This document shows positions 1-15,700 of a DNA stretch of 58,902 bases, in pieces. The position numbers and the translations under genes are program-made. The number at the start of each line of letters is the position of its first letter. Positions within the stretch are counted from its first letter, which is position 1. The notes under the pieces are model-generated. The model searched no databases. It was not told the origin of the DNA and was given only the letters and a program-made list of their open reading frames with translations. The stretch lies in assembly GCA_964556455.1 (NCBI GenBank), contig CAZKWI010000001.1, forward strand, positions 1-58,902, in the 5' to 3' direction. Source of the stretch: an uncultured Planctomycetia bacterium (GTDB taxonomy: Bacteria > Omnitrophota > Gorgyraeia > JABMRJ01).

Positions 1-3000
1 TAATATTTCCCGGGCATTCTCGTCAGCTTTTTTTCTTTGCCAGGGGGTCATGGAATCTTTCGGTCCGCCTGTGAGCCAGTCTGGAGTCGCATGCTTATGT
101 TCTTTGGTCTCAAGTGGCTCTTTAAACACAAATCGGTATTCCTTCTCCCCCGCGCCATCGTCAGCATTGCTTACATTGAACCATGCTGCTTGAGCTTTAA
201 ATCTATCGTGGCTTATCTCCACTACATCAGGCCTGTTACCTGCTCCCCTTGCGAGTTCTCTACGCGTCTTTTCTATATTGAGCAGTGCTTTTACATAAAT
301 AGGCCTTGCCCTTTGAGCAGCGTCCCGGGTGAGAGTGATAAGACATCTGTTCGATTCAAAGAAATTGTCCAGCACATCCGCTGTCATTGCCTCAGGCATT
401 AGCCTTAGGCTCCAGTAATACGCGATTGAGGCGATATTGATATGCCTGTATCCATCACCTCTTTCGAATTGCGCAAGGTTGTCGCAGTATCCCATTTTCA
501 GATGGCCCCGTATCTCATGGATAGCTATGGAATAGACTATGCTTGAGACAAGATTCGATTGCCTTCCGTTCCGCTCGCCTCTGATAGGTATGTGGTGATA
601 GTCGTTCTTAAGCAGGAACGCTATCAGGCATACAAAGGCTGTGTTTATAGCAAGATATTCTACTTTTCCTTTTTCGTCTCTTACTATCTTTGCTGTTATC
701 ATGGGGTCGGCGTCGAATGACTCGACTTTTAATTTCACATCTATCTTTTTGGATTCGTCTTTATTCTCATTTCTCAGTATCTCTTTAAAGATAGGTATAA
801 TGCCTTTGAAATGCTGAACAGTCCCTCTTCCGCCATATCCATTCTTAAGAGCCTTATTGTAAAACTTACCGCCTTTCATATTGCCGCGGTGGCGGTGATT
901 GAGGCATTCGCGGTCATCCACTACTATGGGTACAAACCTCTTATTTTTTAATGTAACGGCATTTTTGCCCCTTTTCTCCACGGTCCCCGGCTGCAGAAAC
1001 GCCCGAAAGTTCATCCCGCCTTCATTGGCCTCCGGCGGCGAGAGGATGGCTTTGACCTCGGCTATGGCCAGTTTTCTTTCAGCCCTTGTGCCGCCCGTGG
1101 CGAGGATGGTCACTGTATCATTTTGACTTACAGACAAAAACAAAAGGTTCGTGCCTGATCCGGCAGGCCTTGAATCTAGGCCTTTAATTATCTCGATCTC
1201 AATTCCCTTGCGCCGGTATTGTGCGACGATCTCTTCCATGGCATCCATTGAATCCTGGTGTATCCCATACGGGTCTGTTACCTTAACATCCGCTGCAGTA
1301 GCATAGAGGCTGTGGGCCTTCTTCTCCTGGTAGCGGTCTGTGTAATTATCATCGTAAAGCTGGCTGTAAACGGCCTCTGATTCAGTGTATCTTTTGGCAT
1401 CTCTATCCATTCCGAGCATTTCATAAGCGTTGGAAAGATGCTCAAATCTCGCCGTGATATTTATGTGTATATCAGGCATATGGAGATACCTTTCGCATAT
1501 GATCTTTCTCGCTGCGAAAAATGCTATGGGGAAATCATGCTGATGGGTCTGAATATCTCTATATTCATCCATGAGTGCCTGTGAAATCCCGGCTGCCGCG
1601 TGAGAATCAGATGTTGAGGCGATCAACGCGTAATCTATCACTTCTTCTGCGTATTTGTAGATAGATCTATCAGCCGCAAGGAGTCCATTGAGCGCCCTCC
1701 TGATAGCAGTCTCTTTTGATATTCTCTCTTTGTTGTTGCCGGTTAATTCCATCCTATGCAGGTATCGCATTACAAGTAAAGTCACTACCACACCCGCTGC
1801 GAAAGCCCCCAGGAGGCCGAGGGCGTATATCCAAGTGCCTACTCCTGTGATCACAAGGACAGATGCAATATCCCATGACCCGCGGCGGGGGTGAGATCGA
1901 TCTCTTTTGGATGGCTTATCAGTCTTTAATGCCTCCTCGAGCCCGCTCAGGAATGCCTCCAGCCTCTTCTTGCCCTCCTCGATAGTGAGTAGCATATGCA
2001 GGTCCCTGTGCGGCTCTACTGAGTTCATGAACTTCCTCGATAGAAATTGTGTAATAAGCGGATCGGATAGGTTTAGCACTGTGACCGTGTCAAGAATGTC
2101 ATTCAGGACATCCCTGACAGATATATTTATTAAATAGTTCTCAGTTGCAGTAGACTGAAATTCGACGCTTTTATAGATTTCATCCAAGGTGCTGAGTCTG
2201 TTTCGGGTCTCTTCCAGCCACTCTCGAAGCATGTCTCTGTCTTTCCCGGGGATGGCATTGAGTTTTATAAAGCCTGTTTCGTATATCGGTCTTACCAAAA
2301 GAACATACCGGCGGAAGAAGAATGTTAAATATACGACAGAAATAAATATGACTACTAAGAATGTGCTTCGGACAATATCATTGTCAGATGTTACTTCTAA
2401 TAAAACAATGATAAAGGGCAGTATTGCGTTTACAAAGGCCGCCGTACGCAGTTTTGCGTATACCTCTCTCACTATGTCGTATGATTTCAGCTCTTCGTGC
2501 ATGTCAAATCCAACCCAGGTTATATGTATAATTTTAGCAAAGTAATACATAAGCGGCACCATCGCCCCTATTACTAACACCATTGCCGACAAAGCATATG
2601 CATCTACCCAATCCACCACCGCAGGGAAGAACCCGCTTACGCCCATAAGGCTGATGATCACCCCTAGCCCCACGATCACAAGGATAGGCACAATATCCCA
2701 TGACCCGCGGCGGCGGAAGATCCGTTTTTTATGTTTGCGTTTAGCGCGGGGTTTTTTGGAGGGTTTTTCTTCCATCAGCGCATTGAACGTGTCTACAGCC
2801 TCCTTTATGCTCACGATGCCGGCCTTTTCCACGATCTCATCTATGCGCTCAAGCACCTCTACTGAAAAATCCAGGATCCTCAAGATCCCGGCTTGCGCTT
2901 TAGGGAGCGCCTCGGATTCTCCGAGATTGCCTATTTCGGTATCGCTCACCTCAAATACAGGGTCTTTGAATATCTCTGACATCTCCTCATTCATCTTTTC

Positions 3001-6000
3001 AAGCCGCTCGCTCAATAAGGCCAGCCTGGCAAGCTCATAATTTTTATCGGGCCCTGTATCCCAAATATGTTCTTCCACCTGTTTTTGCGTGCGGAGTAAG
3101 AATTCTTTTGTCATCGCATACAGGGTATTCTTGCACATATGTTTTAAGGCAGCAGGAAAAAGTTTTTCGAATCTTCCAGCCATCTCATCCTTGTAAGAAT
3201 CTATTTTTTTCTCCATAGCTTTCATGCCGGACATCGATATATAGGCATAGTTTATGACCTGGCCTATCGCCTGGATGCGCTTCATCATTCCCGCAAGCTT
3301 AAGTTGAAATTCCTTTATCATGCGGGCATACCGCGAGCTGCCGCCTTTTTTAAGGAGTTCTTGATCGAGCTCGAGTGCGTAATTCTTCAGCTCTATTAAC
3401 TTGGAATTGAGATATTCGATGTATTCTCTCGGCTTCTCTTCCCATTCCGTAAACCGCATGCCCTCAAGGAAGGTTTTTGTTTCGGGATATATCTTATTGT
3501 AGTAGGTATCATTAAACTTTTTCCTTGTAGCCTTCAATCTTCCGTATTCTCTCACCCTCCAGAAGTTAGACCAGGTAAGCACTATCAGAAGCACCGCTAT
3601 CACGGTGCGCGATACAAGGTCCTGCCTGTCCGCTGCGGCAAGATGCTCTCCGAACGCCTGCAAAAACGATACGATCTCGGGCCAGAATAACACTATAACA
3701 GCCGCTACGGCAACTATGGCGATTATTACGGGGGCCTGTGTCTTTGCGGTTTCGCGGCCCGGGGGGTGTTTTACAGGCGGGGCTTCCGAGGGCTTCCCGC
3801 TTTCAAGGAAAAAGCGCGCGCCTGTATCCAGGTGACGCCTGTCCCAGACTAATATACTGTTTTCCTCCCCTATGCGAGTAACAAGTGCGCTCTCATCATC
3901 CGCAACCTGCTCAGCTGCTTCACGTTTCGGTTCTTCTGCCTGTGACGCTGCGGTCTCAACTGTCTTTTTATCCGGAAGAGTAACAGTTCTTGCTATAGTG
4001 GAAGATGCCGGTTCTATGTCGAGTTCGTCTTTGAGCTTTGCCAGCATCTGACTTCTTTTAGCGAGCCTTCCATCTTGGCTTTCTACAGTGGAAGTCCTTG
4101 CCGGCCTGGCGTCTTCAGTCCGTAGTTTTTCCAAGAGACCATCCAGCATACCTTCCAGGGAGTCTGTTGAGATGTATGTTCTGTCATCAAGCTGGTTTTG
4201 TGTTATTACTTTGTTTTTGAGGTCTTCGGCTTGCTTTTGTCTGTGGGCTCTGAGCCATACGGTCTTTACCCTTCTGAGGTCATGTTCATCTTGTTTAGCG
4301 TCTATGAGGCATTTGTATATGCCTTTTCTGAGCCACTTCTTGGTCTCTTCTTCGGTGTAAACTCCTTTGTTCTGTATGAAGTGGGAGTATGTGGCTATGT
4401 GGTAGTCTCCTTTTTGGAGAAGTTCTTTATAGGGGGTTATTTTCTTTGTAAGGATAGCTACATAAGGCCTTTTGGGGGAGTCTTTGTCGAATTTGGGTAA
4501 AAGGACTACGTAAGATGTCTTATTGTTCTTTAGGACTTCTGTCATACCTTTTGTATGGAAGCCTCCTGTTACAAGGGCGGCTACATTCTGGTCTTTACTT
4601 CTCATCTTATCTATAGTGTTATTTATAAGGGCCTTGTCTCTTTCTAAGGCTAGCTTATAGAAGTCTATGGCTTCGTTGAGTGACGAGAAGAGCTTAGTTA
4701 CTTTGTCATCCTGAGGAGCCTGGGATGCTATGTAGGGCGACGAAGGATCTATACGTAAAGATTCTTCGCTTCGCTCAGAATGACAACGGATAAACTCTGT
4801 GAACTTAGCTGGATTAAATGAGTCTATGTTATCCAGGAGATACTCTAACCTTCCGTTTGTGAGGGAGATGCTGAAGAGATCCTTAAGTATGAGGGCTTCT
4901 TTCTGGAGGTGGTTTAGGGTATGCTGGTCCTGCGATGTAAATAGGCCTTCTTTTATCTTTTCTTCAAAGAGCTCCATCTCACTGAATAGTGATTGGATGT
5001 CTATTGTTTCATAGAGCTTTACGTATTCAGCGTACTTTATGAGGTTCTCGTACTCACTGTCATCCCGAGGAGCTGTTGTCATCCTGAGCGAGCCTTCGCC
5101 TGCATCAGGCACTTTTCCTGTCATCCTGAGCGAGCCTTCGCTTGCATCAGGCGAGCGAAGGATCTTACCCTGTTCCCGGGTAAGATCCTTCGGCGGCTTC
5201 GCCGCCTCAGAATGACAAAGTTTCATTACATCAAGCAGATACGTATGGAACTCATAGTTCGATATCTTATGCATCTTGTACTGGAGACTCTTTAAGACAA
5301 GCGCTTCAAGGTCTTCTTTGGGGAGGGTTTTTTTAAGGGAGTGGACGAGTAGGTCTCTTTCTTTATTGGCCTTTTTGAAGTCTATTGTCTTTTCTATTTC
5401 GATGGATCCTGATAGCTTGGAGAGGTTGGGATATAACCTGTCATCCTGAGCGAGCCCTTGTTTACACCTGGCGAGCGAAGGATCTTTACGTAAAGATCCT
5501 TCGGCGCTTCGCGCCTCAGAATGACAAAGGCTTCCCTCCATCTTCTCCCAGTACTCCTTGAACTCAATATCCCCTTCTTTGTAATCAGCGCTTGTCTTAA
5601 TAAGGTCTTTTACTTCTTCCGGGTATATCCTACTGGCTATTCTTTCAAGCTTATCTATGAGCGAGTCCACTATGGCTACATTCTCTTGCTTTGTAGCTAT
5701 ATTGGCCCTGAAGCTCTCAAGATGGTCCCTGTAGAGCTTATTGTCTTCTATGCCGTATAGCTGGACTTCCTTGTCCCCCACTATGCTGAAGAACTCCCCT
5801 GCTGATAGCTCGCCTTCTTCCATGAGGTAGTCTGCTGTGGATTTACGTATCTCTTCTATGGGGAAGGTCCTGAATATGGAGGTGTCTATGTAGCCGGATG
5901 ATCCTTCTAAGGCTACCATGGATAAGTTATATTCACGTGTTAATGTGTCTAATATATCGACTATGGAGTACTGGGCAGATAGAGAGTCGTGGGCGTCCTG

Positions 6001-6312
6001 TATGTTTATTATGACTTCATCAGAGCCCTGGATACTGATCTCTTTTGTGAGGGCCTTGTCTTGGGGTATGGTGAGGTTCTCTTGTATCTTGGGGTCTATT
6101 GCAGGCTTAACAGGCTGCGGGGTGGCCCCTCCTTGAGCCCAGGTCACCTGCTGCCAGCTGAAGACAATTATAAGTATGGTGCTAATAGCACGTATTATAC
6201 GCTTATATATGCTATTATTATTGCAATATATGTAAATGTAGTCATTATTGGCTGCAATGAATGCCGATCCGCTGCTATTCTGCTCTATTTTTTTTCTGTC
6301 CTGCGGGCTCAT
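1..6312 (-). CDS. Large multi-pass membrane protein, 3'-partial (at least 2,104 aa); ORF absent from the supplied track
   Basis: I read every plus-strand triplet in phase with nt 1 from 1 to 6318. None is tta, cta or tca (the minus-strand stops) until tca at 6319-6321. The first ATG is plus-strand cat at 6310-6312. The translation starts MSPQDRKKIEQNSSGSAF...KRIIRAISTILIIVFSWQQVTWAQGG and runs off the left edge at ...TPWQRKKADENAREIL. Several strongly hydrophobic segments are present. Confidence 0.8.
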   Translation of the reverse strand, partial: MSPQDRKKIEQNSSGSAFIAANNDYIYIYCNNNSIYKRIIRAISTILIIVFSWQQVTWAQGGATPQPVKPAIDPKIQENLTIPQDKALTKEISIQGSDEVIINIQDAHDSLSAQYSIVDILDTLTREYNLSMVALEGSSGYIDTSIFRTFPIEEIRKSTADYLMEEGELSAGEFFSIVGDKEVQLYGIEDNKLYRDHLESFRANIATKQENVAIVDSLIDKLERIASRIYPEEVKDLIKTSADYKEGDIEFKEYWEKMEGSLCHSEARSAEGSLRKDPSLARCKQGLAQDDRLYPNLSKLSGSIEIEKTIDFKKANKERDLLVHSLKKTLPKEDLEALVLKSLQYKMHKISNYEFHTYLLDVMKLCHSEAAKPPKDLTREQGKILRSPDASEGSLRMTGKVPDAGEGSLRMTTAPRDDSEYENLIKYAEYVKLYETIDIQSLFSEMELFEEKIKEGLFTSQDQHTLNHLQKEALILKDLFSISLTNGRLEYLLDNIDSFNPAKFTEFIRCHSERSEESLRIDPSSPYIASQAPQDDKVTKLFSSLNEAIDFYKLALERDKALINNTIDKMRSKDQNVAALVTGGFHTKGMTEVLKNNKTSYVVLLPKFDKDSPKRPYVAILTKKITPYKELLQKGDYHIATYSHFIQNKGVYTEEETKKWLRKGIYKCLIDAKQDEHDLRRVKTVWLRAHRQKQAEDLKNKVITQNQLDDRTYISTDSLEGMLDGLLEKLRTEDARPARTSTVESQDGRLAKRSQMLAKLKDELDIEPASSTIARTVTLPDKKTVETAASQAEEPKREAAEQVADDESALVTRIGEENSILVWDRRHLDTGARFFLESGKPSEAPPVKHPPGRETAKTQAPVIIAIVAVAAVIVLFWPEIVSFLQAFGEHLAAADRQDLVSRTVIAVLLIVLTWSNFWRVREYGRLKATRKKFNDTYYNKIYPETKTFLEGMRFTEWEEKPREYIEYLNSKLIELKNYALELDQELLKKGGSSRYARMIKEFQLKLAGMMKRIQAIGQVINYAYISMSGMKAMEKKIDSYKDEMAGRFEKLFPAALKHMCKNTLYAMTKEFLLRTQKQVEEHIWDTGPDKNYELARLALLSERLEKMNEEMSEIFKDPVFEVSDTEIGNLGESEALPKAQAGILRILDFSVEVLERIDEIVEKAGIVSIKEAVDTFNALMEEKPSKKPRAKRKHKKRIFRRRGSWDIVPILVIVGLGVIISLMGVSGFFPAVVDWVDAYALSAMVLVIGAMVPLMYYFAKIIHITWVGFDMHEELKSYDIVREVYAKLRTAAFVNAILPFIIVLLEVTSDNDIVRSTFLVVIFISVVYLTFFFRRYVLLVRPIYETGFIKLNAIPGKDRDMLREWLEETRNRLSTLDEIYKSVEFQSTATENYLINISVRDVLNDILDTVTVLNLSDPLITQFLSRKFMNSVEPHRDLHMLLTIEEGKKRLEAFLSGLEEALKTDKPSKRDRSHPRRGSWDIASVLVITGVGTWIYALGLLGAFAAGVVVTLLVMRYLHRMELTGNNKERISKETAIRRALNGLLAADRSIYKYAEEVIDYALIASTSDSHAAAGISQALMDEYRDIQTHQHDFPIAFFAARKIICERYLHMPDIHINITARFEHLSNAYEMLGMDRDAKRYTESEAVYSQLYDDNYTDRYQEKKAHSLYATAADVKVTDPYGIHQDSMDAMEEIVAQYRRKGIEIEIIKGLDSRPAGSGTNLLFLSVSQNDTVTILATGGTRAERKLAIAEVKAILSPPEANEGGMNFRAFLQPGTVEKRGKNAVTLKNKRFVPIVVDDRECLNHRHRGNMKGGKFYNKALKNGYGGRGTVQHFKGIIPIFKEILRNENKDESKKIDVKLKVESFDADPMITAKIVRDEKGKVEYLAINTAFVCLIAFLLKNDYHHIPIRGERNGRQSNLVSSIVYSIAIHEIRGHLKMGYCDNLAQFERGDGYRHINIASIAYYWSLRLMPEAMTADVLDNFFESNRCLITLTRDAAQRARPIYVKALLNIEKTRRELARGAGNRPDVVEISHDRFKAQAAWFNVSNADDGAGEKEYRFVFKEPLETKEHKHATPDWLTGGPKDSMTPWQRKKADENAREIL
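1766..3735 (-). other. Gene 2 membrane-spanning regions (segments at about 3559-3735, 2290-2715 and 1766-1888)
   Basis: APVIIAIVAVAAVIVLFWPEIVSF, TVIAVLLIVLTWSNFW, WDIVPILVIVGLGVIISLMGVSGFFPAVV, LSAMVLVIGAMVPLMYYFAKII, AAFVNAILPFIIVLLEV, STFLVVIFISVVYLTFFF and WDIASVLVITGVGTWIYALGLLGAFAAGVVVTLLVM. Basic clusters (KKPRAKRKHKKRIFRRRG, KRDRSHPRRG) precede two of them. Confidence 0.65.
4705..4784. repeat. Palindromic element copy A (GTCATCCTGAGG...GCTCAGAATGAC) inside the gene 2 coding frame
   Basis: Outer arms 4705-4716 and 4773-4784 match at 10 of 12 positions. The inner hairpin is cgaaggatct / agattcttcg (4741-4750 / 4759-4768) with loop atacgtaa. The frame stays open, and the translation is ...RCHSERSEESLRIDPSSPYIASQAPQDDK. 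Confidence 0.75.
5059..5216. repeat. Palindromic element copy B, with a triplicated left arm
   Basis: Left arms gtcatcc[ct]gag start at 5059, 5078 and 5120. The 32 nt at 5078-5109 recur at 5120-5151 with one mismatch. The inner stem is a perfect 14 bp, gaaggatcttaccc / gggtaagatccttc. The right arm ctcagaatgac ends at 5216. The frame is open, and the translation is LCHSEAAKPPKDLTREQGKILRSPDASEGSLRMTGKVPDAGEGSLRMTTAPRDD. Confidence 0.75.
5440..5525. repeat. Palindromic element copy C
   Basis: gtcatcctgagcgagc ... gcgcctcagaatgac. The inner stem is a perfect 12 bp, gaaggatcttta / taaagatccttc. The frame is open, and the translation is LCHSEARSAEGSLRKDPSLARCKQGLAQDDR. Confidence 0.75.
6140..6200 (-). 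other. Gene 2 N-terminal signal-anchor or signal-peptide-like segment
   Basis: KRIIRAISTILIIVFSWQQVTWA/QGGATPQP has a basic n-region, a hydrophobic core and an AxA-like TWA site. It is preceded by an unusually long stretch of about 36 aa. Confidence 0.4.
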
Positions 6313-6363
6313 ATTATCTCGTCAACGGGTTAATATCTTTTCTAAACGCTTAGATTGCCGGAT

Positions 6364-6400
6364 AAAAAAATAGGGCCTGGTTCCCCAATAGCCCAGACCC
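6364..6400 (-). terminator. Intrinsic-terminator-like hairpin plus U7 between the promoter candidate and the gene 2 start
   Basis: The minus strand reads GGGUCUGG-GCUAUUGGGGAA-CCAGGCCC-UA-UUUUUUU. The arms are 6393-6400 and 6373-6380, forming 8 bp including one G-U pair. The loop is 12 nt and the U-run is 6364-6370. Confidence 0.45.
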
Positions 6401-6443
6401 CCTAGTCTGCGAAACTTTATTTACTGCTTTACTAATTAAAAGA

Positions 6444-6472
6444 AGTATATCATATACAAAATCAAAAGTCAA
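6444..6472 (-). promoter_or_regulatory. Sigma70-like promoter candidate for gene 2 (TTGACT-N17-TATACT)
   Basis: The minus strand reads ggcTTGACTtttgattttgtatatgaTATACTtc. The -35 element is plus-strand agtcaa at 6467-6472. The -10 element is plus-strand agtata at 6444-6449. The spacer is exactly 17 nt. The site lies in an AT-rich spacer about 130 nt upstream of ATG 6312. Confidence 0.35.
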
Positions 6473-6564
6473 GCCTTAAATACTAGCTTTTTTAATATCT
6501 AATTTTATATATAAAATGTCTTTAGTAACTTTAATCCCTATACAAAAATCTAACTATTAGAAAA

Positions 6565-6773
6565 AAGGGGACGCCTCACTCGTCTTTAACGCATTATATT
6601 ATATAAAGTTATAGGAGTAGCCGGTACATGTTAGAAAAAATACATTAACTTTTGACATTATGGCTGGATTGATATGAGAGTATGGACAATGGGATGGGAG
6701 TGAAAAAAATGTACCTGTTACTATAGTAACTCGTTATGTTGTTTGGTGTAAGAGAGGAGTGAGGCGTCCCCTT
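6565..6773 (-). repeat. 17-bp perfect inverted repeat (6565-6581 / 6757-6773) enclosing 175 AT-rich nt, followed on the minus strand by a U-tract
   Basis: aaGGGGACGCCTCACTC at 6565-6581 is the exact reverse complement of GAGTGAGGCGTCCCCtt at 6757-6773. On the minus strand the second arm is followed directly by a T-run (plus-strand A-run 6561-6566, whose last two bases overlap the arm). The interior contains a 14-nt palindrome GTTACTATAGTAAC (6717-6730) and a 7-bp pair ggtacat (6623-6629) / atgtacc (6709-6715). The element starts 22 nt after the giant-gene stop. Confidence 0.5.
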
Positions 6774-6794
6774 ACATACCCTTACATACGTCCC

Positions 6795-9700
6795 TTACAT
6801 GGCGCGTTCGACGGCGAGGGTGGATGTGCGGGCTTCGAAGAGTTTCTGGAGCTCGATAGGCATAACGGCCTTTATCTTTAGGTCCGGTAACAGCGCAGCG
6901 ATATCTTTGTAATCTCTCCTGCTGCCGTACAGGTATAATGCCGGTTCGCTGTCTATGGAGATGCTGAGTATGGCTGAGAGCTTGCCGAGTGTGCCCTGAT
7001 CAAGGCCTTCGCCTATTATCCTCAAGCCCATCCTTCTGGCTTTCTTGTCAGATATGTTCTTGCCCATCTCCTGCTCAAGCCTTATCATGAAATCATTCCT
7101 GGCGGACATCGTATCGAGATTGCCGGACTTTGTGCTGAGGAGCATGACGAATTTCCCGAACACTTTAGGCGCATCCAGATGATCCGTTATAAATCCGTTC
7201 ATTGTGGAGGTACCAACCCCTATATTATGCTTTTGTAATTTCGCTATCATATCGGTTACGGTATCGCTCTCGGGTCTCTGGGTGATTATCCTGACTTGTG
7301 TGCTTTCTCCGACGAGATCCGCTATCTCACTGACGGCAAGAGGCGCCTCGAGGAACGTATCCTCTATCACTATCGTTTCATAGGTAAGCGGGCTCTTTTC
7401 CATCTTCTCTGCCGTGATAAACGCCTCTTTGTATTTGTTGTCGTTTACACGGCCGCCTATGATGGTGTCGATAAGACTGGTACGGGACTTCTTCTCAGCG
7501 GGCGGCCTGACCGCGGTCCGCATCAACGGCTTTACGGGCGCGGGCCTGAACAGCTTAATGCCGGGCAAGGCCTTAAGCCGGGTCTTCAGCTTTTGTATAA
7601 ACGTGAATTTATCTTTCTCAGCCGTGTCAATAGCGGCATCACGGGTTATACTGCTTTTCACGGCGCTCATCACTTCCAGCACCACCCTGTCATCCTGCAG
7701 GCTATCGCGCGAGATAACCGGTATCGTATTTACATGCCCTATTTTGGCGTACAGCGCTGTCAGCTCACGGTCGCTCAACTGCCCAAAGCCGTCCCTTATG
7801 ACCGCGATACGCTCTTTCAGCGTTTTAAGCCCTTCTCTTACGCCGTCAGGCATCGGGGCGGTGTAAAGTATCTCGTCTATGGTGCCTATCTCCTCTATGC
7901 CGTCCTTCAGGCGGGCCATCTTGTCATTAAGCCTGGCCACCTTGAAGCTTTCGCCGTCATAATAGAGCTCTTTTATATCGCCATTCGATTCTATTATGTA
8001 TTCGGATACAAACCGCCCGTAGAGCCTTTCTGTGGCGATGGCTGTGGCGGCGTCGCCGAGGAATTTATACCCTTCGCCTGCGGCGGCCGGCTCAGGATGC
8101 GTATGCAGGCTCAATAATACCCCTTCCTTACCGGAGAGGAGGTCCATCAGGTCTTCCGCGCCGTAGGTGAAGGATGTGCTTATATACTCTATCTCACCGG
8201 TCACATCAGAAATCGCTGTAATTGATCCGTCAGAGGTGATGACCTTACCACTGGAGAGAACGACGATCTTGCTCTCCTGTCTCATGCCTTCAGGGCTTCT
8301 GGCGCTTACCATGAACGCCAGCAGGCGCTCTTCCACGTTGTCCCATGCCTCTTCCGGCAGGAATGGCGCTATCTTGCCGAACAAGCGCTCGGTCTGCTTC
8401 GCTATCCTGGGGGTTATGCGCGCAGCTACAGGAGGAGCGGCATGTTTTGCGACAAGAACAGGAACTACTGTGATCTCTTTTATCCCGTCTGCGAACAGCT
8501 CTTCTGCCGCAGCTACAAGCCGGCCCTTCGCCGCGCTGTCCGCGATATAAACATGGAAATCTGCGGTCCTGACCTCTTTCCTGCGCGCAAGTGCATAAGC
8601 CCCTTTATGGTTGCCGTACAACCACTCATCCATTTTCATATGGGAGTAGTCTTTTGTCGTTAAAGATACCTTCCAGCCGCCGTTACGCAGATATTTTTCA
8701 GCGGCATCCGCATCTGTCATTCTCTGCCCCGGCGTCAGGCCAAACTCAATCTCTTTGCCTTCTGCGTCTACGGCATCCGCTTTTACGGGCTTGGTTATTA
8801 CCGGCGGGGCTTCCGGCTCTTCATAGTCAATCACAACGGGCGTACCGTCCTCAAACGTGTCACTAGGCGTATCAGACAGCTCCTCGTCAGCCAAATCCTC
8901 CAAATCAGCGGCCGGCGTAAGCTCGAACCGGCCTCTTCTCCCGCTAGCCAATTCCGCGCCCAGCAGTTCTTCGGCTGCGATCTTATTCTCCGTAGCCGTC
9001 GATGTGCGGGCGGTTCCGGCGTGCGGCTCGGATATCGTCGCTGTGCGGGCGGATGCCGCGGCCGATTCAGGCGCTCCGGCCTCAACCTCGGCCGCCGGCG
9101 TTCCATGCCTTGGCCTTCTCCTCGGCGTCTCTTTTCTCCAGCCGAGCCACGTCTCACGTCCCGTAGACCCGGTTTCAAGCCTTTTGCCTTCCGCATCGTA
9201 GAGGGTTTCGCTCGTCCCGCGCTCCGCGGGTTCGCCTTCAAGCCTTCTGCCATCGCCATCATACAGGCCTTCCCATTCTCCTTCCGGCCTCTCGGCGTAT
9301 TCGTGTGTCCCATCAGGTTCAACCGATGCAGCGCCAGGCATGATAACAGGCGATGGCGGGGTTGTGCCTGTCTCTGCCTCTCTGGCCTCCAGCGCTCTTC
9401 TCAGCCTATCTAACACTTCATCAAAGTCGAGATCGGTGTCTTCTTCTTCCGCTGTTTCCGCAGAAACAGTCTCTTCTACCTCCGCCTCGGCCGGAGCGAC
9501 TTCGGCTTCGGTCGCCTTCCTCGGCTCTGCAGTCACCCAGTCGAGCCATGTCTTCTGCCCCATGAACATGCTTTCAGGGCTCTCGCCTTTAGGGTCATAT
9601 GGCGTATCCCATTTTTCATCGGACTTCTTCAGATACTCACCTACCTTTTCAAATCCTGACGCGTCGTCATGTTCTATGAGCTGCTGCATCGGGTCGGTGC

Positions 9701-12700
9701 CGCTTACCATGCCGTCTATGAACTCCTTGAATAATGGCCTTGCTTCTTCCTTTGTCCTCGGAAGCCGCTTCTCCATGAATTCATCGAGCTTGCCCGCGGC
9801 GTCAACAAGCTTCGCAAATACACCTTCGGCGTATACGCTGAACATATCGCTGGCTTTATCATAAGCTCCGGCACCCTCTCCCCAGGCAAGCGGATTGAGG
9901 CCCAGCGTGTACTCGCAAGCTTCGTGTACGAACTGGCTCATGAAGAAATCCATGCCTGACCTCACTATAGAGTCCCTGCTCGCTGTATTTAAATACAATG
10001 TACTGTCGTTATCAAAAGTGGTAAACGGCACTCTGTTAAACCTCTCTTCTTTCTTACGCTGGCCCTCAAAGCGATGGTCCGCTTTTTCCGTGGCGAAGTT
10101 AACCCACTTCAGGGACATCCTTGAAAGCCCTATAAGCGCCCTGTCCAATAACTCTTTCTGGTAATCAGGCAGCAGGCCGCTTGCGAATTTCTGTATGTAT
10201 TTGCGGACACCTGCTATCGCCCTGCGTTTTAATTCATAGGGTTCCATAGCCGATATGTCATCGCTCAATTCATAACTGTGCCTCGTGACCCCGGTGAATA
10301 CCTCATTCGTAGGCACACGGCCGGAGTCTTCCATTACCCTTATTATAATTTCGGCATTCTCTTCCGGGGTGCTGCCCGTAAGTTTAGCGCCGAGCTTAAG
10401 CTCTATGCTGCTCTGGAGCTCGGGTGTCATATTTTCAAGCATGCTCATCGAACCGCCTATGAGCCACTCTTCCGTAATGGTTCTCCTGGCCAGCGCATAG
10501 AGTGTCTCTATCTTTGTATCATTCCTCTCTTCTTCGTCCATCGCCTCTGCCAGCTCTGCCATCTTCTGCGCCTCTTCAGGGGTAGCGACCTCTTTCGAGC
10601 CGTCAGGCCTGACGAACGCCAGGCGCCTCAATACAGTCTGCGGCGCAACTTCGAGCTCTTCGGCCCTCTGGATCACCTCTGCCAATGATGCGGACCTTTC
10701 TTCTCCTTCTGCGACAAGGCCGCCAAGGTCGATCTCGGCTTCGAGGTCATCCGTCCTGTCGAGGAGGGCCTGGGCACGCTGGAGGAGATCGCCCATACCG
10801 GCCTCTTCGGCGTTCCTCGCGAGCTGATCCATCTCTCCGGCTATGCTCTCATCAAACTCTCCGGTCCCTTCAAGATACGCCCTGCATCTGGAGGCCATGG
10901 CGTAGAAGACCGATCCCAGGAGTCTCATGTGGGCCGCTTCCTCTTCTGAGAGCGATTCATCATCCGCATTAGCAAAGAGGGCGTTGCCCCTGTCTACCAG
11001 AGATCTCGTGAGGGTATTTAATCTCTCCACGGCCCTGCGCCTCAATCCTGCGGTTGGCGTTTCCTCGATAGCATCTATAATTCCGTCGAAGTTATCCATC
11101 TCAGCCAGGAGCCTTCCGGAAAGGGCTACCACTGTCTCCATCGCCCTGTATGCGGCATAATTCATACGGCCGTCTACATTGATGGCATCCTCGTATAAAC
11201 CGGTTGCCCTCCAGAGCGCAAGGAAACGCTCTGATATATTCTGCAGGCGCCCATCTATATCCGTGTCCCGTTCCTCCGCCTCCAGGGCCTCTGCCCTCTG
11301 GATAAGACTGTCTGCCTCCCTTGCATTATCTTCTGCAGTCTGCTTCTCTGCCAGGTCGGTAATTGCGCCTTTTCTTGCGGCATCTATCTCTGCCTGCCTA
11401 TCCTCACTAAGCAGTCCGTCTTCGGCTATAGCCTCAGCCGCTCTCAGGTGCTCTTCTGCTCTATTAGTATTGCCCCTGTTTGTATGGGCAGTCGCCATCG
11501 CAATGTGCATGTCGTAAAGCTCTTTCGAGGCCTCTGTCAATTCGACATCTGTCTCCGAAGACTTCGCTATCGCAGGCGCCAGGTTTTCATTTATCTCGTC
11601 AACGAATCCGGCGGCTGTATTATTTATATCTTCCGTATTGTATATACGAGGTATCAGGGATCTGCCCACATTGAGCCAGAGCAGTATCCTCACATAGAAG
11701 GCCTTCCTCTTCACATCTCCGCAGAACCTGTCGATCTCGCCCACGAGCCCTCTATCAAAGGCTTCGTGTTCACTCGTAGCCTCAGCGCCGGCAGCTTCGG
11801 TTATCCTGTCAAGCGCAACAACGTTCAACTGTGCCATTGTGAATCTCGCCATGGAGACCAGCGCTTCCACTTCGCGGCGGCCGCTTTCGCTCACAGTAGC
11901 GTCACTTTCAAGGCGTTCTATAGCGGTTGCCTCTATTCTCCCAACAATAGCCTCTGCATGGTCTCTTGCGCCTCTGGCGTGGTTCAGCCTCTCATCGTCA
12001 TCTACATCCTCGCCCAGCATGTCTCTCAGCCCGGCAATATCTTCGAATATCCTGCTGTCGGTACTCCTGTCGAGTAAGCCCATAGCAACCATGGCGTCCA
12101 CAAGCTCTTCTATCGTATTCACATCCGCCGTAGTAACTTCCGCCAGGGCGATCTCAGCTTCAAGAGTATGGGCGCTCAGTGATGCCGCCTCTTCGTCTCT
12201 CGTATCCATCGCCTCATCGTACGAGGCCTCTTTCCCACCAAGGAGGACTTCCGCCTGCCATAAGTCTCCGGAGGCGATGAGGGCGTTTATCCTTCCGTCT
12301 TGAGCCTTGTCGCTTTCAGGATCTATCGTTAAGACTTCCCTGTCTACCCTTGCGGCATCGGCATGGCGTCCGGCCTCGCTGTATTTTCCGCCTATCTCGA
12401 GATACTCCTCTGCCGCCTTTTCATCACCTTCCTGGGCGCGGGTTATCCTTGCGCGGATTTCAAGGGCTTCAATGCGGCTGCCATCAGCTTCGATAGCCTT
12501 GTCACAGAGTCCCGTTATCCTGGCTGAGGTCTCTTCATCCAGGCTGCCCCTGCGCTCCAGGCAGGAGGCAAGGTTTATATAGGCATCCGCTGTCTCTGTG
12601 CCGTGGTCGATCGCCCTCTGGTAATTATCTGCCGCAAGACCGTAGACGCCCATAGATTCATAAGAACTCGCAAGACCGTAATATGCCCTTGCCATCTCGC

Positions 12701-15700
12701 CTTCATTTGCAAAGTTGCCGTATTCCAGCGCCCTAAGGAAGCTTTCGCATGCTCCTGCGTAGTCGCCGTTATCGAGCATGGCGTATCCGTCCGAGAGGCG
12801 GAATTCGCTGTCCTTTATACCTTCCGGCCTCAACTCATGAATACGCCTTATATAATCGATGGCCTCGGCGTTTGCGCTGTCAGATCCTAATACCATTCTG
12901 AATTCCTCAAGGGCCTCCCTGTATCTTCTGCCATCGAAGTGCAGTTTTCCTAATACAAGGTGCGCAGGCGCAAAGTCTTTATCCAGCGCAACGGCCGCAC
13001 CGGCTTCCCGCCGGGCCATATTGTCATGGCCCTGTTCCATATGGACATTCGCAAGGGCGACGTGTGCCTCTTTGGACTTTCTGTCAAACTGTATGGCCTC
13101 TTCGAGATACTCTATAGCCCTCCTGGGATGTCCGGCCTCGTTGTATAGCTCTGCTATGCTGACATAGATGTCTGCAGACGGGTTGAGCGTATATTCACGC
13201 CTCAGGAGGCCGACTCTAAGCTCTAATGTATCTTCACCGGATAAGGGCGGCATGCTGTTTATGAGGGTATCTATCCTCGCGGAATCATTATTTTCATTTA
13301 CAAAGTCCGGATTGGTGACTGTAATATTTCTCAGGGCTACTGTCAGCCTGTTTCTCTGCTCAGGAGACAGCCTGCCTAAGAGATCTTCTTCCTTTCTTGT
13401 GGCCGGTCTTCCTGTAATAGAGATTAACCGCGTCATCTCTCCCAGGATATCCGTGGACCCGAACTCTACATTGGTGTTGTCGGTCTTGAGTATGCTTACA
13501 GCGGTGACCTTGAGCGCTTTTAGCAGTCCGTTGAGGACGAGCATCTCCTCTACGGGGCTCAGGGTTCCGTCTTCCGCAAGCTCGACGAATTTTTTTAATT
13601 GCGCGGTCGTCTCTTCCTCTTTTGTCGCCCTGTCGAACCTCTGCTCAAATGAATCGGCGCCGGCTTCTGTGAAGTCTGTCAGCCTGGTTATAACCGAGCG
13701 CTCCCTGGCAGTCTCAAGGTCTGCTTCGCCGTCGGGTTCGTCATACGTATCGAGCCTTGCTGTTACTTCCTCTGTGAGTACAGTATCTACATCTATCGTT
13801 ACCGCATCATTTTCTCTCAAACTCTTTACTAGCAATCCGCCGTTCTCGGCCTCGCTGGCAGTCACTTTATCATCACTGAAGATGCCGTGTATGAGCCTTC
13901 GCGCAGCGGGCTCTTCTATCATATCGCTCTCTGCTACCAGCTTAAGTCCTTCCCAAGCGTTTGTGAATTCCATGCTCGTTCCTTCATCGGTAGCGCGCAT
14001 AACAGCCGTGTATTGCGGGATCGCCTCTTCCAGGCGTCCGGCCTTTCTTAGCGTATCGCCGAGCTTGACCCTCGATTCGAAATCGAGCGGGTTGCAGATG
14101 ACGGTGTCTCTGAGATGGTCTACAGCCATCGATACGGGCGATATGGTCTCTCCTATCGTTATGCCCATACCTTCCGCCTTACCCCTCAGCCACCGGAGAT
14201 CCGCCTGCACAGTCTCATCTGCCGCTACACCCAGGCGTTCCAACTCGCCATTATAATAAGAAGCCGCGTTAACGAGAATCTCCAATGCCCGGGCAACGGC
14301 ATCCTGTTCTTCGCCGGAGACCCATACACTTAAGAGCTCTCTCGCGTTCTCTACGGTATTCCTCAGGAGATCGGCAAGCTTATCCGTCTTTACTTTGATC
14401 TCGTCTTCTATCGATGCCGAAGGCATTGCAAAGAGCCCCAGGGTCTCCAGCTGGCTCTCCTTCTTATCCTCGAGTATCCTTATCTGCGTAAGTACTGCCT
14501 CCGCCTCTTCAGCATGGACGAGGAGGTGCGCTTCCGCCGCAGCAAGGCTCACCTTCGAATACTTCTCATCCTCTTCATGGCAGCGGCCTACAGCCAGTTT
14601 CACAAGCAACCTCTCCGCTATATCGCCTTCCTCGAGCCCCTCTGCGTATTCATCGTATTTCTCTATGGCCTCACCGTACTTCTCCTCTATCTCAAGCGCG
14701 CGTGCGCTATAATATAGGCCTCTTCCTTCTGTATCCTTTTCAAATGTGCCGAGCTCTTCCAGGAGGCCTTCTGTCTCTTCGAGCGACTTCTTAAGCTCTT
14801 CTATTTCTTCGTCGAACCCTGTCTCCGCTCTATCGTCAGCAACGATCCCTTCTTTAGTCTCCAGTTCCTCTATATAGTGCATGGTGGCCACTTCTGTATC
14901 TATGAGCGCTGTGTCTTCTCTTTCAGAAACGAGATCTTCGCGCTCCTGCCTTAAGTCCTGCAGGGCTTCCTGCCGCGCCTCTTCTATCTCTTTCTCAGCA
15001 GCTGTCTCAGCGCGTCCCGGGATAAAGAGCGATTCCCTCTCTTCTACCAGTTCCGCGATCTCTCTATCGAGCCTGGCAATTCTCCGTCTTAACGACCTGG
15101 CCCTAAGGGCCCTAATAGGCCTCATTCGCGATACGGGTCCGGCATTCCCTAAAATAGCCCTTATTACCCGGTGGCCTTCCGCTAGTGAGGCTACCGCTCC
15201 ATTGTCGAATAATTTTTCTGCGAGATCGCTCTTCCTGTCTACATAATCTTTCCATCCTTCTCTAGGACGTCGTAGTTCCGTTTCCACTCCTTCATAATAA
15301 TCCTCGTCAACCACATATCCCCGGACGCGGGCCCTGCGCTCCCTGATATCCAGGCTCAATTCAATAAGCTCGTCTATCTCCTCGCCCAAGCCAAGCTGCC
15401 TGAGAACCTGTATGCCCTCGAGCGCTGTCAATTCAAGGGCCAGCTCTTCTCTCTCATTCATCCTGTTTCCTATGACCGCGTCTTCTTCGGCCGTTATCCT
15501 CTCTATATCTTCAGTCTTCTCATCCGCAAGGGCCATAAGCCCTTCGATCCTCTCATCCAGCTCCCTTATCTTCCTGTCGAGCTCAGCCAGTGAATCGGCC
15601 CTCGCGGTCAATTCCGCTGTCTTGGTCTCCCTTTCGGTCTTAAGCGCCTCTGCCTCTCTGTCGAAGACCTCGAGCGCCTCTTCCTTTTCACTTATCTCCG

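What the first reader, a model, noticed from the sequence alone, without database searches (positions are those of the whole stretch)
1..6312. A 2,104-codon ORF immediately downstream of the giant gene is missing from the ORF track
The minus-strand frame in phase with nt 1 has no stop from the left edge up to 6318, and it has an ATG at 6310-6312. It was presumably dropped because it lacks an in-window stop. All listed plus-strand ORFs between 37 and 6333 are its antisense shadows. The product has an N-terminal hydrophobic anchor and a domain with weak Tiki/TraB/ChaN-like signatures (QDAH...LEG...GGFHTKG). It also has at least 8 TM segments and large helical loops. It is co-oriented with the giant gene and only 482 nt away, which makes it a candidate partner such as a membrane platform or processing factor.
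Basis: seen in the sequence. Interest (0 to 1): 0.7.

Follow-up and report, generated by a model that had tools for sequence, protein, structure and literature searches.

The report
Unlisted long gene beside giant gene
The unlisted reading frame is a real gene: it is the first 2,104 codons of another very long membrane protein of a multi-copy Omnitrophota family that begins with a hydrolase-like "head" domain, so it is more likely a sibling of the neighbouring giant gene than its dedicated helper.

Summary
The minus-strand frame is open from nt 1 to 6321, with a stop at 6322-6324 and an ATG at 6310-6312. That gives 2,104 codons, cut by the window's left edge, which is why the ORF lister omits it. 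The giant ORF upstream is also open to the right edge, so it is partial too.

Residues ~37-650 match at least 87 proteins and at least 544 genomic loci, almost all from Omnitrophota. This "N-module" follows a signal-peptide-like helix. D106-x-H108, E136, R558 and GG-x-H586 are invariant or nearly so. They have the order and spacing of the TIKI/Ere/ChaN/TraB "2His/2Glu" site, split by a ~360-residue helical insert. Pfam, NCBIfam and Foldseek all point to this superfamily, but all below threshold.

The rest of the protein is almost an orphan. It has transmembrane hairpins, an HPr-like domain and a zincin-like HEIRGH domain.

N-module genes are usually longer than 3,800 aa, and one reaches 10,511 aa. 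They sit in tandem arrays, and complete members share a C-terminal module. The "partner or processing factor" idea is therefore only partly supported. The gene is best read as the next member of an array, probably with its own transcription signals.

Three palindromic mobile elements are inserted in frame in the N-module.

The parts
1..6312 (-). Coding sequence, 2,104 codons. The 5' end is complete (ATG 6310-6312, upstream in-frame stop 6322-6324). The 3' end is cut by the window edge.
6136..6198 (-). N-terminal hydrophobic helix (aa 39-59, IIRAISTILIIVFSWQQVTWA). It follows a K/R-containing N-region and ends in the family motif WAQGG. It is a signal peptide or a signal anchor.
   Evidence: helix in the AF2 model
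4363..6060 (-). Family-defining N-module (aa 85-650). It has an alpha/beta core in two halves (aa ~95-190 and ~545-650), split by a ~360-residue all-helical insertion (aa ~191-544).
5989..6000 (-). QDAH (aa 105-108). H108 is invariant and Q105/D106 are nearly invariant. Proposed first acid-x-His of a TIKI-type 2His/2Glu site.
   Evidence: motif definition from PMC6254334
5899..5910 (-). LEGS (aa 135-138). E136 is invariant and lies 28 residues after H108.
4546..4644 (-). ERDKALINN ... GGFHTKG (aa 557-589). R558, G583, G584 and H586 are invariant and N565 is nearly invariant. This is the stretch that aligns with Pfam PF04187 (ChaN, Tiki superfamily).
5437..5527 (-). Palindromic MITE-like element A, inserted in frame (peptide CHSEARSAEGSLRKDPSLARCKQGLAQDD). 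It is absent from homologues and falls in a lower-confidence stretch of the model (pLDDT 53-57).
5058..5221 (-). Palindromic element B (composite, with 3-4 half-sites), in frame, aa ~364-416. It is a query-specific insertion and falls in a low-confidence loop.
4700..4785 (-). Palindromic element C, in frame (CHSERSEESLRIDPSSPYIASQAPQDD).
3562..3750 (-). First transmembrane hairpin (aa 855-917), followed by a strongly basic juxtamembrane stretch.
2293..2712 (-). Basic stretch + RRGSWDI + cluster of four hydrophobic segments (aa 1201-1340).
1768..1887 (-). Second copy of the basic-stretch + RRGSWDI + hydrophobic 34-mer unit (aa 1476-1515). It is an internal repeat of the unit at aa 1201 onward.
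   Evidence: (D2)
1045..1290 (-). Divergent HPr-like domain (aa 1675-1756), with a G-I-H at aa 1683-1685.
   Evidence: all below Pfam's threshold
247..945 (-). Conserved domain (aa ~1790-2022) with HEIRGH (aa 1932-1937, nt 502-519) and AQxERG. The predicted fold is closest to minimal zincin metallopeptidases.
6313..6794 (-). AT-rich 482-nt spacer. It contains a 17-bp-stem long hairpin followed by a U-run directly after the giant gene's stop (about 6560-6775). It also has a sigma-70-like site (6472-6444) and a second hairpin with T7 (about 6362-6405).
6795..58902 (-). Upstream giant ORF of at least 17,349 aa, open to the right edge. SecA_DEAD, P-loop and PP_bind domains lie at its aa ~12,118-12,737 and TPRs at ~15,224-15,437.

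Best explanation
The ORF is the 5' part of a genuine gene for a very long, modular membrane protein. It belongs to a multi-copy family found almost only in Omnitrophota. What is shown: the family has a fixed 'head', made of a signal-peptide-like helix plus a ~600-residue N-module. Complete members also have a fixed ~320-residue 'tail'. Between the two lies a region that differs from paralogue to paralogue. What is inferred: the N-module is a remote member of the TIKI/erythromycin-esterase/ChaN/TraB superfamily. Its alpha/beta core keeps the D-x-H ... E ... H catalytic set plus an Arg/Asn helix, and is split by a large helical insertion. It most likely acts as a membrane-tethered hydrolase (protease or esterase) at the start of each protein. 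It may process the long polypeptide itself or a common envelope substrate. In this gene the variable part consists of transmembrane hairpins, each preceded by a basic stretch and separated by helical spacers. It also contains a divergent HPr-like domain and a zincin-like HEIRGH domain. By the positive-inside rule these soluble parts face the cytoplasm. The gene follows the giant gene because such genes occur in tandem arrays. It is a sibling in an array rather than a dedicated accessory factor, and it probably has its own transcription signals. Its true length is unknown and may be much greater than 2,104 aa.
For: The frame is open and the other five frames are closed. Eighty-seven homologues, almost all Omnitrophota, match only aa ~37-650 at 20-58% identity. 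H108, Q114, E136, G187, R558, G583, G584, H586 and P606 are invariant in 63 sequences, and Q105, D106, G137, E189 and N565 are nearly so. The order and the 28-residue His-to-Glu spacing match the 2His/2Glu TIKI site of RRSP (His-3902, Glu-3930, His-4030; PMC6254334). E. coli YbaP, a TraB-family protein, shows the same layout: GSIH..VEAD..helical insert..QRN..VGALHLYG. In the AF2 model (pLDDT 74.8) these motifs sit at strand ends. The only alpha/beta Foldseek hits are EreC, Bcr135 and HopBA1, and names Bcr135 and HopBA1 as TIKI-superfamily structures and describes the Ere family as sharing its active-site architecture. Of 24,736 Pfam models, PF04187 (ChaN, Tiki superfamily) is the one hit by most core sequences, 6 of 23, best E 5.9e-4, on the RN-helix/GGxH stretch. 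One core sequence hits TIGR00261 traB. For the family's extent: at least 544 loci in species-representative genomes. In 33 of 38 loci the gene is still open after ~3,800 codons. A 10,511-aa gene starts with the N-module, and one contig carries N-modules at ~19, 48, 80 and 90 kb. A C-terminal module is found at the very end of complete members. It also ends upstream long ORFs: 10 at E<=1.4e-6 plus one at 0.0027. For the variable region: no word-index homologues were found for aa 700-2104, and only aa ~1790-2022 is shared with 18 representatives, plus one that matches the HPr-like stretch. For its folds: the zincin-like model has selecase as top hit (probability 0.92, target TM 0.57), and both the query and P0105 weakly hit PTS-HPr. 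For the spacer: terminator-like and promoter-like signals are present.
Against: No TIKI-clan match reaches a curated threshold: PF04187 scores 20.3 bits against a cut-off of 27.7. Foldseek E-values are 0.2-1.5. hhalign against YbaP gives 0.8% probability. Profile searches of PDB sequences find no TIKI member. Topology is unresolved. The N-terminus looks like a Sec signal, but counting hydrophobic segments with the positive-inside rule puts the N-module on the cytoplasmic side. Several complete members carry cytoplasm-type enzymes with no further membrane segment. The window's giant gene shows no detectable C-module and no similarity to the family beyond a 26-28% SecA region. Its N-terminus lies outside the window, so its membership of the same family is not shown. 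No hydrolytic activity or processing has been demonstrated for any member.
Confidence: 0.6

Rival explanations
1. Dedicated partner of the giant protein. The downstream protein is a membrane platform or protease that inserts, anchors or cleaves the neighbouring giant protein. It would use its Tiki-like and zincin-like domains for this. Conversely, it could be a client of the SecA-like motor carried by the giant protein.
For: The two genes are co-oriented and only 482 nt apart. The ORF has two hydrolase-like domains. The giant carries SecA_DEAD, P-loop and PP_bind domains, which the visible part of this ORF lacks. In 16-17 of 41 loci with a full upstream flank, a co-oriented ORF fills the whole 10 kb upstream of a family member. 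Three of five looked-up homologues follow genes of 5,047, 10,511 and 13,053 aa. In L001 a family member is followed by a 2,701-aa SecA_DEAD protein.
Against: Many of the upstream long genes are family members themselves. Ten end with the C-module at E<=1.4e-6, one more at 0.0027, and one 10,511-aa gene starts with the N-module. Thirteen of 41 loci have an RND pump upstream instead, and others have unrelated genes. The non-N-module part is not conserved even in the closest relative, which is 47% identical and diverges after aa ~786. A fixed partner would be expected to be conserved. The spacer contains terminator-like structures and a promoter-like site. No orthologous pair was found to test.
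Confidence: 0.15
2. The N-module is not an enzyme. It would be a ligand- or metal-binding, or purely structural, membrane-proximal domain, as in the haem-binding lipoprotein ChaN. It would serve as a common anchoring, sorting or assembly head for the family.
For: The best Pfam pointer is to the ChaN family (PF04187) rather than to a protease family. Its position directly after a signal-like helix, and its presence on proteins with unrelated cargo, suggest a generic targeting or anchoring role. The ~360-residue helical insertion has a weak EF-hand-like stretch.
Against: The complete D-x-H / E / H set plus Arg is invariant down to 19-21% identity. That set is what distinguishes active TIKI members from inactive ones such as PMT (PMC6254334).
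Confidence: 0.2
3. The frame is a decaying pseudogene or an assembly chimera, kept open by chance. The three mobile-element insertions would be signs of inactivation.
For: Three palindromic elements lie inside the coding region within 830 bp. Most of the protein has no homologues.
Against: An open frame of 6,321 nt, against 71-164 codons in the other frames, cannot arise by chance. All catalytic-type invariant residues are intact. All three insertions preserve the frame, contain no stops, and fall in variable loops of the model, as described for in-frame MITEs such as Rickettsia palindromic elements (PMC10969869). The distal HEIRGH domain is 38-47% identical to its relatives and has intact motifs.
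Confidence: 0.03

Closest known systems
Omnitrophota giant and long proteins ('Archaeovorin-type'; West-Roberts et al. 2023, bioRxiv 10.1101/2023.11.21.568195; 2026 preprint 10.64898/2026.06.07.730766)
   Same: Same phylum. The proteins are very long, with many membrane segments, and mix enzyme-like domains (radical SAM, HAD, PEP-utilising, TPR, SecA_DEAD). These appear among this ORF's homologues and in the neighbouring giant gene. Topology predictions are ambiguous, as those authors also report.
   Different: Those papers describe the N-terminal regions as generally lacking identifiable domains, apart from C39 or S8 peptidases. They do not mention Tiki, TraB or paralogues, and the only 'tandem' in either is repeats within a single gene, not arrays of genes. 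Here a shared N-module, a shared C-module and tandem arrays also link genes of 2-4 kaa to genes over 10 kaa. They report small pilZ genes directly downstream of most giant genes. That is not the case in this window.
TIKI superfamily (Tiki, TraB/PrgY, ChaN, erythromycin esterases, HopBA1, the MARTX effector RRSP)
   Same: The order and spacing of acid-x-His, Glu, Arg/Asn and G-x-His are the same. The predicted core is beta-alpha-beta. The weak Pfam, NCBIfam and Foldseek pointers all fall within this superfamily.
   Different: No match reaches significance. The first motif is QDAH rather than GxxH or ExH. A ~360-residue helical insertion splits the core. The domain sits at the head of proteins of 2 to over 10 kaa.
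MARTX and other modular toxins with conserved ends and variable internal cargo (analogy only)
   Same: Conserved terminal modules bracket a variable set of enzyme-like domains. A TIKI-fold endopeptidase is a known MARTX component.
   Different: There is no sequence similarity to RTX repeats or to the cysteine protease domain. There is no evidence of secretion or autoprocessing. The cargo here looks like housekeeping enzymes.
Minimal zincins (selecase, jannalysin, Acel_2062), and the HEXXGH zinc motif of the M49 dipeptidyl peptidase III family (the M49 motif is from my own knowledge)
   Same: The predicted strands plus a helix carrying HEIRGH resemble selecase. The motif has the HExxGH spacing.
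   Different: Foldseek E is 0.1 and model pLDDT is 58.8. The motif is not the canonical HEXXH. The third metal ligand is not identified, and no Pfam family matches.
Rickettsia palindromic elements and other in-frame MITEs (PMC10969869)
   Same: They are short palindromic repeats inserted into coding sequence without breaking the frame, adding loop peptides.
   Different: This is a different element sequence in a different phylum. Only this one gene in the window carries them, and none was found in 85 related loci.

Membership tests
   E down to 4.5e-196, 47-58% identity to the nearest member, and all invariant residues present.
   The 3' end lies beyond nt 1. The HMM finds no match in the visible 2,104 aa. 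Contig extension failed.
TIKI superfamily | 2His/2Glu catalytic set in the order acid-x-His ... Glu ... His (PMC6254334) | tested here: met
   D106-A-H108, E136 (28 residues after H108, the same spacing as RRSP His-3902 to Glu-3930) and H586. They are invariant or nearly invariant in 63 sequences. An Asp replaces the first Glu.
TIKI superfamily | A parallel beta-sheet core flanked by helices that superposes on solved members | tested here: inconclusive
   The AF2 model has the beta-alpha-beta elements. Foldseek's only alpha/beta hits are EreC, Bcr135 and HopBA1, but with E 0.2-1.5 and probability 0.13-0.47.
TIKI superfamily | A significant profile match to a family of the clan (PF04187, PF01963, PF05139) | tested here: not met
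   PF04187 is hit by 6 of 23 cores, best 20.3 bits against a gathering score of 27.7. The full ORF gives no hit. The PDB profile search is negative.
TraB/PrgY family | A match to TIGR00261 or PF01963, or to a bona fide member | tested here: not met
   One of 23 cores hits TIGR00261, at E 0.008. hhalign against E. coli YbaP gives 0.8% probability. The resemblance is at motif level only.
Archaeovorin-type giant proteins (West-Roberts et al. 2023) | Numerous transmembrane regions | tested here: met
   Seven or eight membrane-length hydrophobic segments plus the N-terminal helix. This comes from a hydropathy scan only.
Archaeovorin-type giant proteins (West-Roberts et al. 2023) | A divergent SecA DEAD domain, and giant length | tested here: inconclusive
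   There is no SecA domain in the visible 2,104 aa. The rest of the gene is outside the window. The neighbouring giant gene does have one.
PTS HPr (PF00381) | A profile match above the gathering score, with the active-site His in a G-[IL]-H context | tested here: inconclusive
   The score is 19.4 bits against 23 (E 0.001), covering profile positions 4-78. G-I-H is present at aa 1683-1685. The homologue P0105 also hits weakly. There is no PDB sequence hit.
Zincin metallopeptidases (minigluzincin-like) | HEXXH on an active-site helix packed against a small sheet, plus a third ligand | tested here: inconclusive
   The motif is HEIRGH, i.e. HEXXXH, and is conserved in 10 of the 11 aligned relative segments. 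Foldseek's top eight hits are selecase or Acel_2062 (probability up to 0.92, E 0.1). Model pLDDT is 58.8. There is no Pfam hit.

The most novel reading that the evidence does not exclude
The fixed head (a TIKI-like hydrolase) and fixed tail bracket interchangeable enzyme 'cargo'. This would define a previously unrecognised Omnitrophota system. In it, long and giant polyproteins are inserted or exported, perhaps with the SecA-like motors embedded in some members, or via the RND/outer-membrane-factor operons found upstream of 13 of 41 arrays. The head domain would then cut them into working pieces at the membrane. Functionally this would parallel autoprocessing multi-effector toxins, used here by an episymbiotic or predatory nanobacterium.
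Probability: 0.1. Interest if true: 0.8.

Novelty: new variant of a known kind. Interest (0 to 1): 0.45.

Why it matters
Giant genes of Omnitrophota are an open puzzle. Their N-terminal regions have been called domain-less, and nobody knows how they are inserted, whether they are cleaved, or how the many long genes in one genome relate to each other.

This ORF gives a handle on that puzzle. It shows a conserved, probably catalytic, TIKI-like head domain and a conserved tail. These tie genes of 2-4 kaa to genes over 10 kaa as one family arranged in tandem arrays.

That makes concrete tests possible. One can mutate three residues, look for cleavage products in existing Velamenicoccus proteomes, and check topology.

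For annotation, it is a reminder that ORF tracks which drop end-truncated frames can hide the largest genes on a contig.

Tried and rejected
- **Word-index searches:** queries with aa 700-2104 and with aa 1785-2035 found nothing. Only the exhaustive HMMER search found relatives of the distal domain.
- **PDB sequence searches:**
  - The whole N-module profile gave only a weak EF-hand-like match to troponin C, inside the helical insert.
  - The spliced core profile gave nothing.
  - The HPr-like and HEIRGH stretches gave nothing.
- **hhalign** of the core profile against E. coli YbaP (TraB family) was not significant.
- **NCBIfam** on the full ORF gave no family. On the cores it gave mostly noise plus one traB hit.
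The first alignment was too large and one alignment call failed. The TIKI fold could therefore only be tested with the helical insert present, and coiled-coil proteins swamp that Foldseek result.
- **Contig extension and orthologous gene pairs:** metagenome scans with the ORF's distal 585 aa and with the giant's last 700 aa found no relatives.
- **Giant gene versus related loci:** tblastn of the giant against 84 loci found nothing. The C-module HMMs do not detect the giant's C-terminus, despite a superficial resemblance I noticed by eye. I therefore dropped the idea that the window's giant demonstrably belongs to the same family.
- **Rfam on the spacer** gave only a sub-threshold McaS match. 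The leader fold is no better than shuffled sequence.
- **The palindromic element motif** is absent from 85 related loci.
- **Pseudogene or chance ORF** was considered and rejected; see the rival explanations.
Full report
**Observation.** Translating the minus strand of 1-6330 gives a stop at 6322-6324 and an ATG at 6310-6312. After that come 2,104 codons with no stop down to nt 1. The other five frames of the same stretch have longest open runs of 71-164 codons. The ORF tool lists only plus-strand ORFs of 128 aa or less between 37 and 6333. By its own description, it omits ORFs that run off an end. The giant ORF (6795-58844, 17,349 aa) ends 482 nt upstream. There is no in-frame stop between its listed GTG and the right edge of the window, so it is also incomplete at its 5' end. 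The length of 2,104 codons is a lower bound.

**What the protein matches.** A search of the full translation returned 87 proteins, almost all labelled Omnitrophota/Omnitrophica, of 1,200-3,700 aa. Their annotated domains vary widely and include SecA_DEAD, TPR, HAD, radical SAM, PEP-utilising, HPr, GT2, cellulase and Glu dehydrogenase. Local BLAST shows that every hit aligns only with aa ~37-650 of the query, reaching aa 786 in the closest hit, which is 47% identical. I call this region the N-module. In all homologues it directly follows a hydrophobic helix. That helix is preceded by basic residues and ends in a WAQGG-like motif.

**The N-module.** In a 63-sequence alignment whose identity falls to 19-21%, nine residues are invariant: H108, Q114, E136, G187, R558, G583, G584, H586 and P606. 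Q105, D106, G137, E189 and N565 are nearly invariant (confirmed).
- The AF2 model of aa 37-660 has mean pLDDT 74.8. It shows a strand ending in QDAH, a helix, a strand ending in LEG and a strand ending in YGIE. A ~360-residue all-helical insertion follows. Then come a long helix carrying ERD..N, a strand ending in GGFH, a helix and a strand.
- This is the layout described for the TIKI superfamily. That layout is a parallel sheet with a 2His/2Glu site, which in RRSP is Glu-3900, His-3902, Glu-3930 and His-4030 (PMC6254334). The His-to-Glu spacing of 28 residues is identical here.
- E. coli YbaP, a TraB-family protein, shows the same order with a helical insert in the same place: GSIH, VEAD, QRN, VGALHLYG.

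**Independent tests of the TIKI assignment.** All the tests point the same way, but none is significant.
- Foldseek with the whole model is dominated by coiled-coil proteins. Its only alpha/beta hits are EreC, Bcr135 and HopBA1, with E 0.2-1.5. One search lists Bcr135 and HopBA1 as TIKI-superfamily structures.
- After splicing out the insertion, six of 23 core sequences hit Pfam PF04187 ('Haem-binding uptake, Tiki superfamily, ChaN'). The best E is 5.9e-4, at 20.3 bits against a cut-off of 27.7. The alignment covers the RN-helix and GGxH strand.
- One core sequence hits TIGR00261 traB.
- PDB sequence profiles and hhalign against YbaP are negative.

I therefore treat the TIKI-like fold as likely, at about 65%, and not as proven. 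The gene is not a member of any curated family.

**The rest of the ORF.**
- Residues 700-2104 have no word-index homologues.
- A hydropathy scan finds a hairpin at aa 855-917, four segments at aa 1202-1340, and a 34-residue hydrophobic stretch at aa 1482-1515.
- Two of these blocks are preceded by the same unit, a basic run followed by RRGSWDI. This unit is also visible as a DNA repeat (1838-1891 and 2663-2716) and as a protein repeat with E 3e-10.
- The positive-inside rule places aa 918-1206, 1341-1481 and 1516 onward in the cytoplasm. Counting segments then puts the N-module on the same side. That conflicts with its signal-peptide-like N-terminus. West-Roberts et al. report the same kind of ambiguity for giant proteins. 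I leave topology open.
- Residues 1675-1756 weakly match PTS-HPr, with E 0.001 and 19.4 bits against a cut-off of 23. A G-I-H sits at the expected place. A relative of this stretch, P0105, also weakly hits HPr.
- Residues ~1790-2022 form a conserved domain. It is shared with 18 of the 19 representatives found among 1.84 billion, at E down to 1e-34 and 38-47% identity. It carries the motif HEIR[GA]H ... AQxxRG.
- The model of this domain has pLDDT 58.8 overall and 73-89 over the core. Its eight best Foldseek hits are the minimal zincins selecase and Acel_2062, with probability up to 0.92, target TM 0.57 and E 0.1. Pfam has no match.

**Genomic context of the family.**
- A scan of species-representative genomes found at least 544 loci, almost all Omnitrophota MAGs. 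Many genomes hold several copies.
- In 38 loci with at least 11 kb after the match, 33 genes are still open at the end of the locus, at ~3,800 codons.
- In 41 loci with a full 10-kb upstream flank, 16-17 have a co-oriented ORF that fills the flank. Thirteen have an AcrB-type RND pump instead.
- Complete members share a ~320-residue C-terminal module. Among the upstream long ORFs, ten end with that module at E<=1.4e-6, and one more does so at E 0.0027. One of them, 2,584 aa and complete, also starts with the N-module.
- On contig PLNN01000019.1, N-modules lie at ~19.3, 48.4, 80.2 and ~90 kb. The 10,511-aa gene upstream of P0043 starts at the 48.4-kb N-module.
- Family members downstream of genes of 13,053 and 5,047 aa were also seen.
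- The window's layout, a very long gene followed after a few hundred nt by an N-module gene, is therefore typical of tandem arrays of this family.

**The neighbouring giant gene.** It has SecA_DEAD, P-loop_SecA and SecA_PP_bind domains at aa ~12,118-12,737, and TPRs near aa 15,230-15,440. It has no Pfam hit in its first 10,000 aa. That content fits the SecA-bearing giant proteins of West-Roberts et al.. It shows no detectable C-module. Its only similarity to family members is 26-28% identity in the SecA region. Its N-terminus is outside the window. Whether it is itself headed by an N-module cannot be decided here.

**The spacer.** Directly after the giant's stop codon, a 17-bp perfect stem closes a ~190-nt AT-rich loop and is followed by a U-run. 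The fold z-score is -4.1, with 0 of 200 shuffles folding as well. A sigma-70-like site with 10 of 12 matches and an extended TG lies at 6472-6444. A second GC hairpin with T7 lies at about 6405-6362. The leader fold as a whole is not better than shuffles, and Rfam finds nothing above threshold. These signals suggest separate transcription, but they are consensus matches only.

**Interpretation.** The ORF is the start of another long member of the family. It is probably not a dedicated accessory of the giant protein. The invariant catalytic-type residues argue that the head domain is an active hydrolase. Its substrate is unknown. Candidates are the protein's own polypeptide chain, the other array products, or an envelope component. 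The dedicated-partner reading keeps about 15% weight, mainly because this giant gene carries a SecA-like motor that the visible part of the ORF lacks. The two preprints on Omnitrophota giant genes do not describe the shared head or tail, or any Tiki/TraB relationship. The family definition and the TIKI link therefore appear to be new. The phenomenon of long modular Omnitrophota proteins is already known.

**Side observation.** Three palindromic elements interrupt the N-module coding sequence. They have outer arms TGTCATYCTGAG / CTCAGRATGACA and perfect inner palindromes.
- There are eight half-sites between 4704 and 5526. The only other match in the window is a single one-mismatch site at 47,120, against 0.48 matches expected by chance.
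- They coincide with query-specific insertions in the family alignment and with low-confidence stretches of the model.
- All three keep the frame.
- This resembles the in-frame MITEs known from Rickettsia (PMC10969869).

Noticed in passing
window 4700-4785, 5058-5221, 5437-5527 (minus-strand coding): Three nested-palindrome MITE-like elements (outer arms TGTCATYCTGAG, perfect inner palindromes) are inserted in frame in the N-module. They add loop peptides (CHSE...SLR...QDD/LRMT) that homologues lack. There are eight half-sites within 830 bp, and only one weak site in the other 58 kb.
   Followed up: partly
window 58845-58902: The 17,349-aa giant ORF has no in-frame stop upstream of its listed GTG. 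It therefore runs off the right edge and is longer than listed.
   Followed up: yes
window 6560-6797: Directly after the giant gene's stop, a 17-bp perfect stem (AAGGGGACGCCUCACUC / GAGUGAGGCGUCCCCUU) closes a ~190-nt AT-rich loop and is followed by a U-run (z = -4.1). It could be a terminator or a small TIR-flanked element. The stop codon itself lies in three tandem ATGTAAGGG-like repeats.
   Followed up: partly
loci L007, L009, L010, L027, L031, L044, L047, L055, L061, L065, L067, L070, L073 (upstream of the match); L001 101-9715: Thirteen of 41 family members with a full upstream flank sit immediately downstream of an AcrB-type RND pump. In L001 this is a complete outer-membrane-factor, adaptor and RND operon. 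The association is recurrent and unexplained.
   Followed up: partly
C-termini of P0018, P0035, P0043, P0047, P0055-P0058, P0060, P0063 and of upstream ORFs in L013, L049, L057, L064 etc.: Complete family members share a ~320-residue C-terminal module ending ...LY.FLP...P.DLE.EIR.YY.....L.RA. No Pfam annotation is recorded for it in the precomputed lists.
   Followed up: partly
window 1838-1891 and 2663-2716 (ORF aa 1201-1207 and 1476-1482): An internal repeat: a basic stretch plus RRGSWDI, immediately before hydrophobic segments. Similar basic-RRG-hydrophobic units are visible in P0006, P0007 and P0055. It may be a reusable membrane re-entry unit of these long proteins.
   Followed up: partly
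N-module helical insert, ORF aa ~225-285 (profile positions 199-256 of alignment A2): A weak EF-hand-like match to the C-lobe of troponin C (E 4e-4), centred on ...H.EGKI.F..YW.... The usual acidic calcium ligands are mostly missing.
   Followed up: no
N-termini of P0088, P0089 and P0093 (proteins sharing only the HEIRGH domain): These proteins lack the N-module, yet they start with a similar hydrophobic helix ending in Q-x-I-x-W-A-Y-P-D (the N-module family has Q-x-x-x-W-A-Q-G-G). This hints at a phylum-specific N-terminal sorting or cleavage motif.
   Followed up: no
P0001 / locus L052 (closest homologue): P0001 carries its own duplicated peptide, TQSRAGL(S/N)LPYFG. One copy is near the N-terminus and one is at the loop equivalent to insertion A of the query. 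It also has an ...ASEAPRNDE stretch at the site of insertion B. The same loops seem to accept different inserted elements in different genomes.
   Followed up: no
locus L001 15688-23793: The gene for P0007 (1,923 aa) overlaps the start of a 2,701-aa SecA_DEAD ORF by ~85 nt on the same strand. This may be one longer gene split by a frameshift or an assembly error.
   Followed up: no
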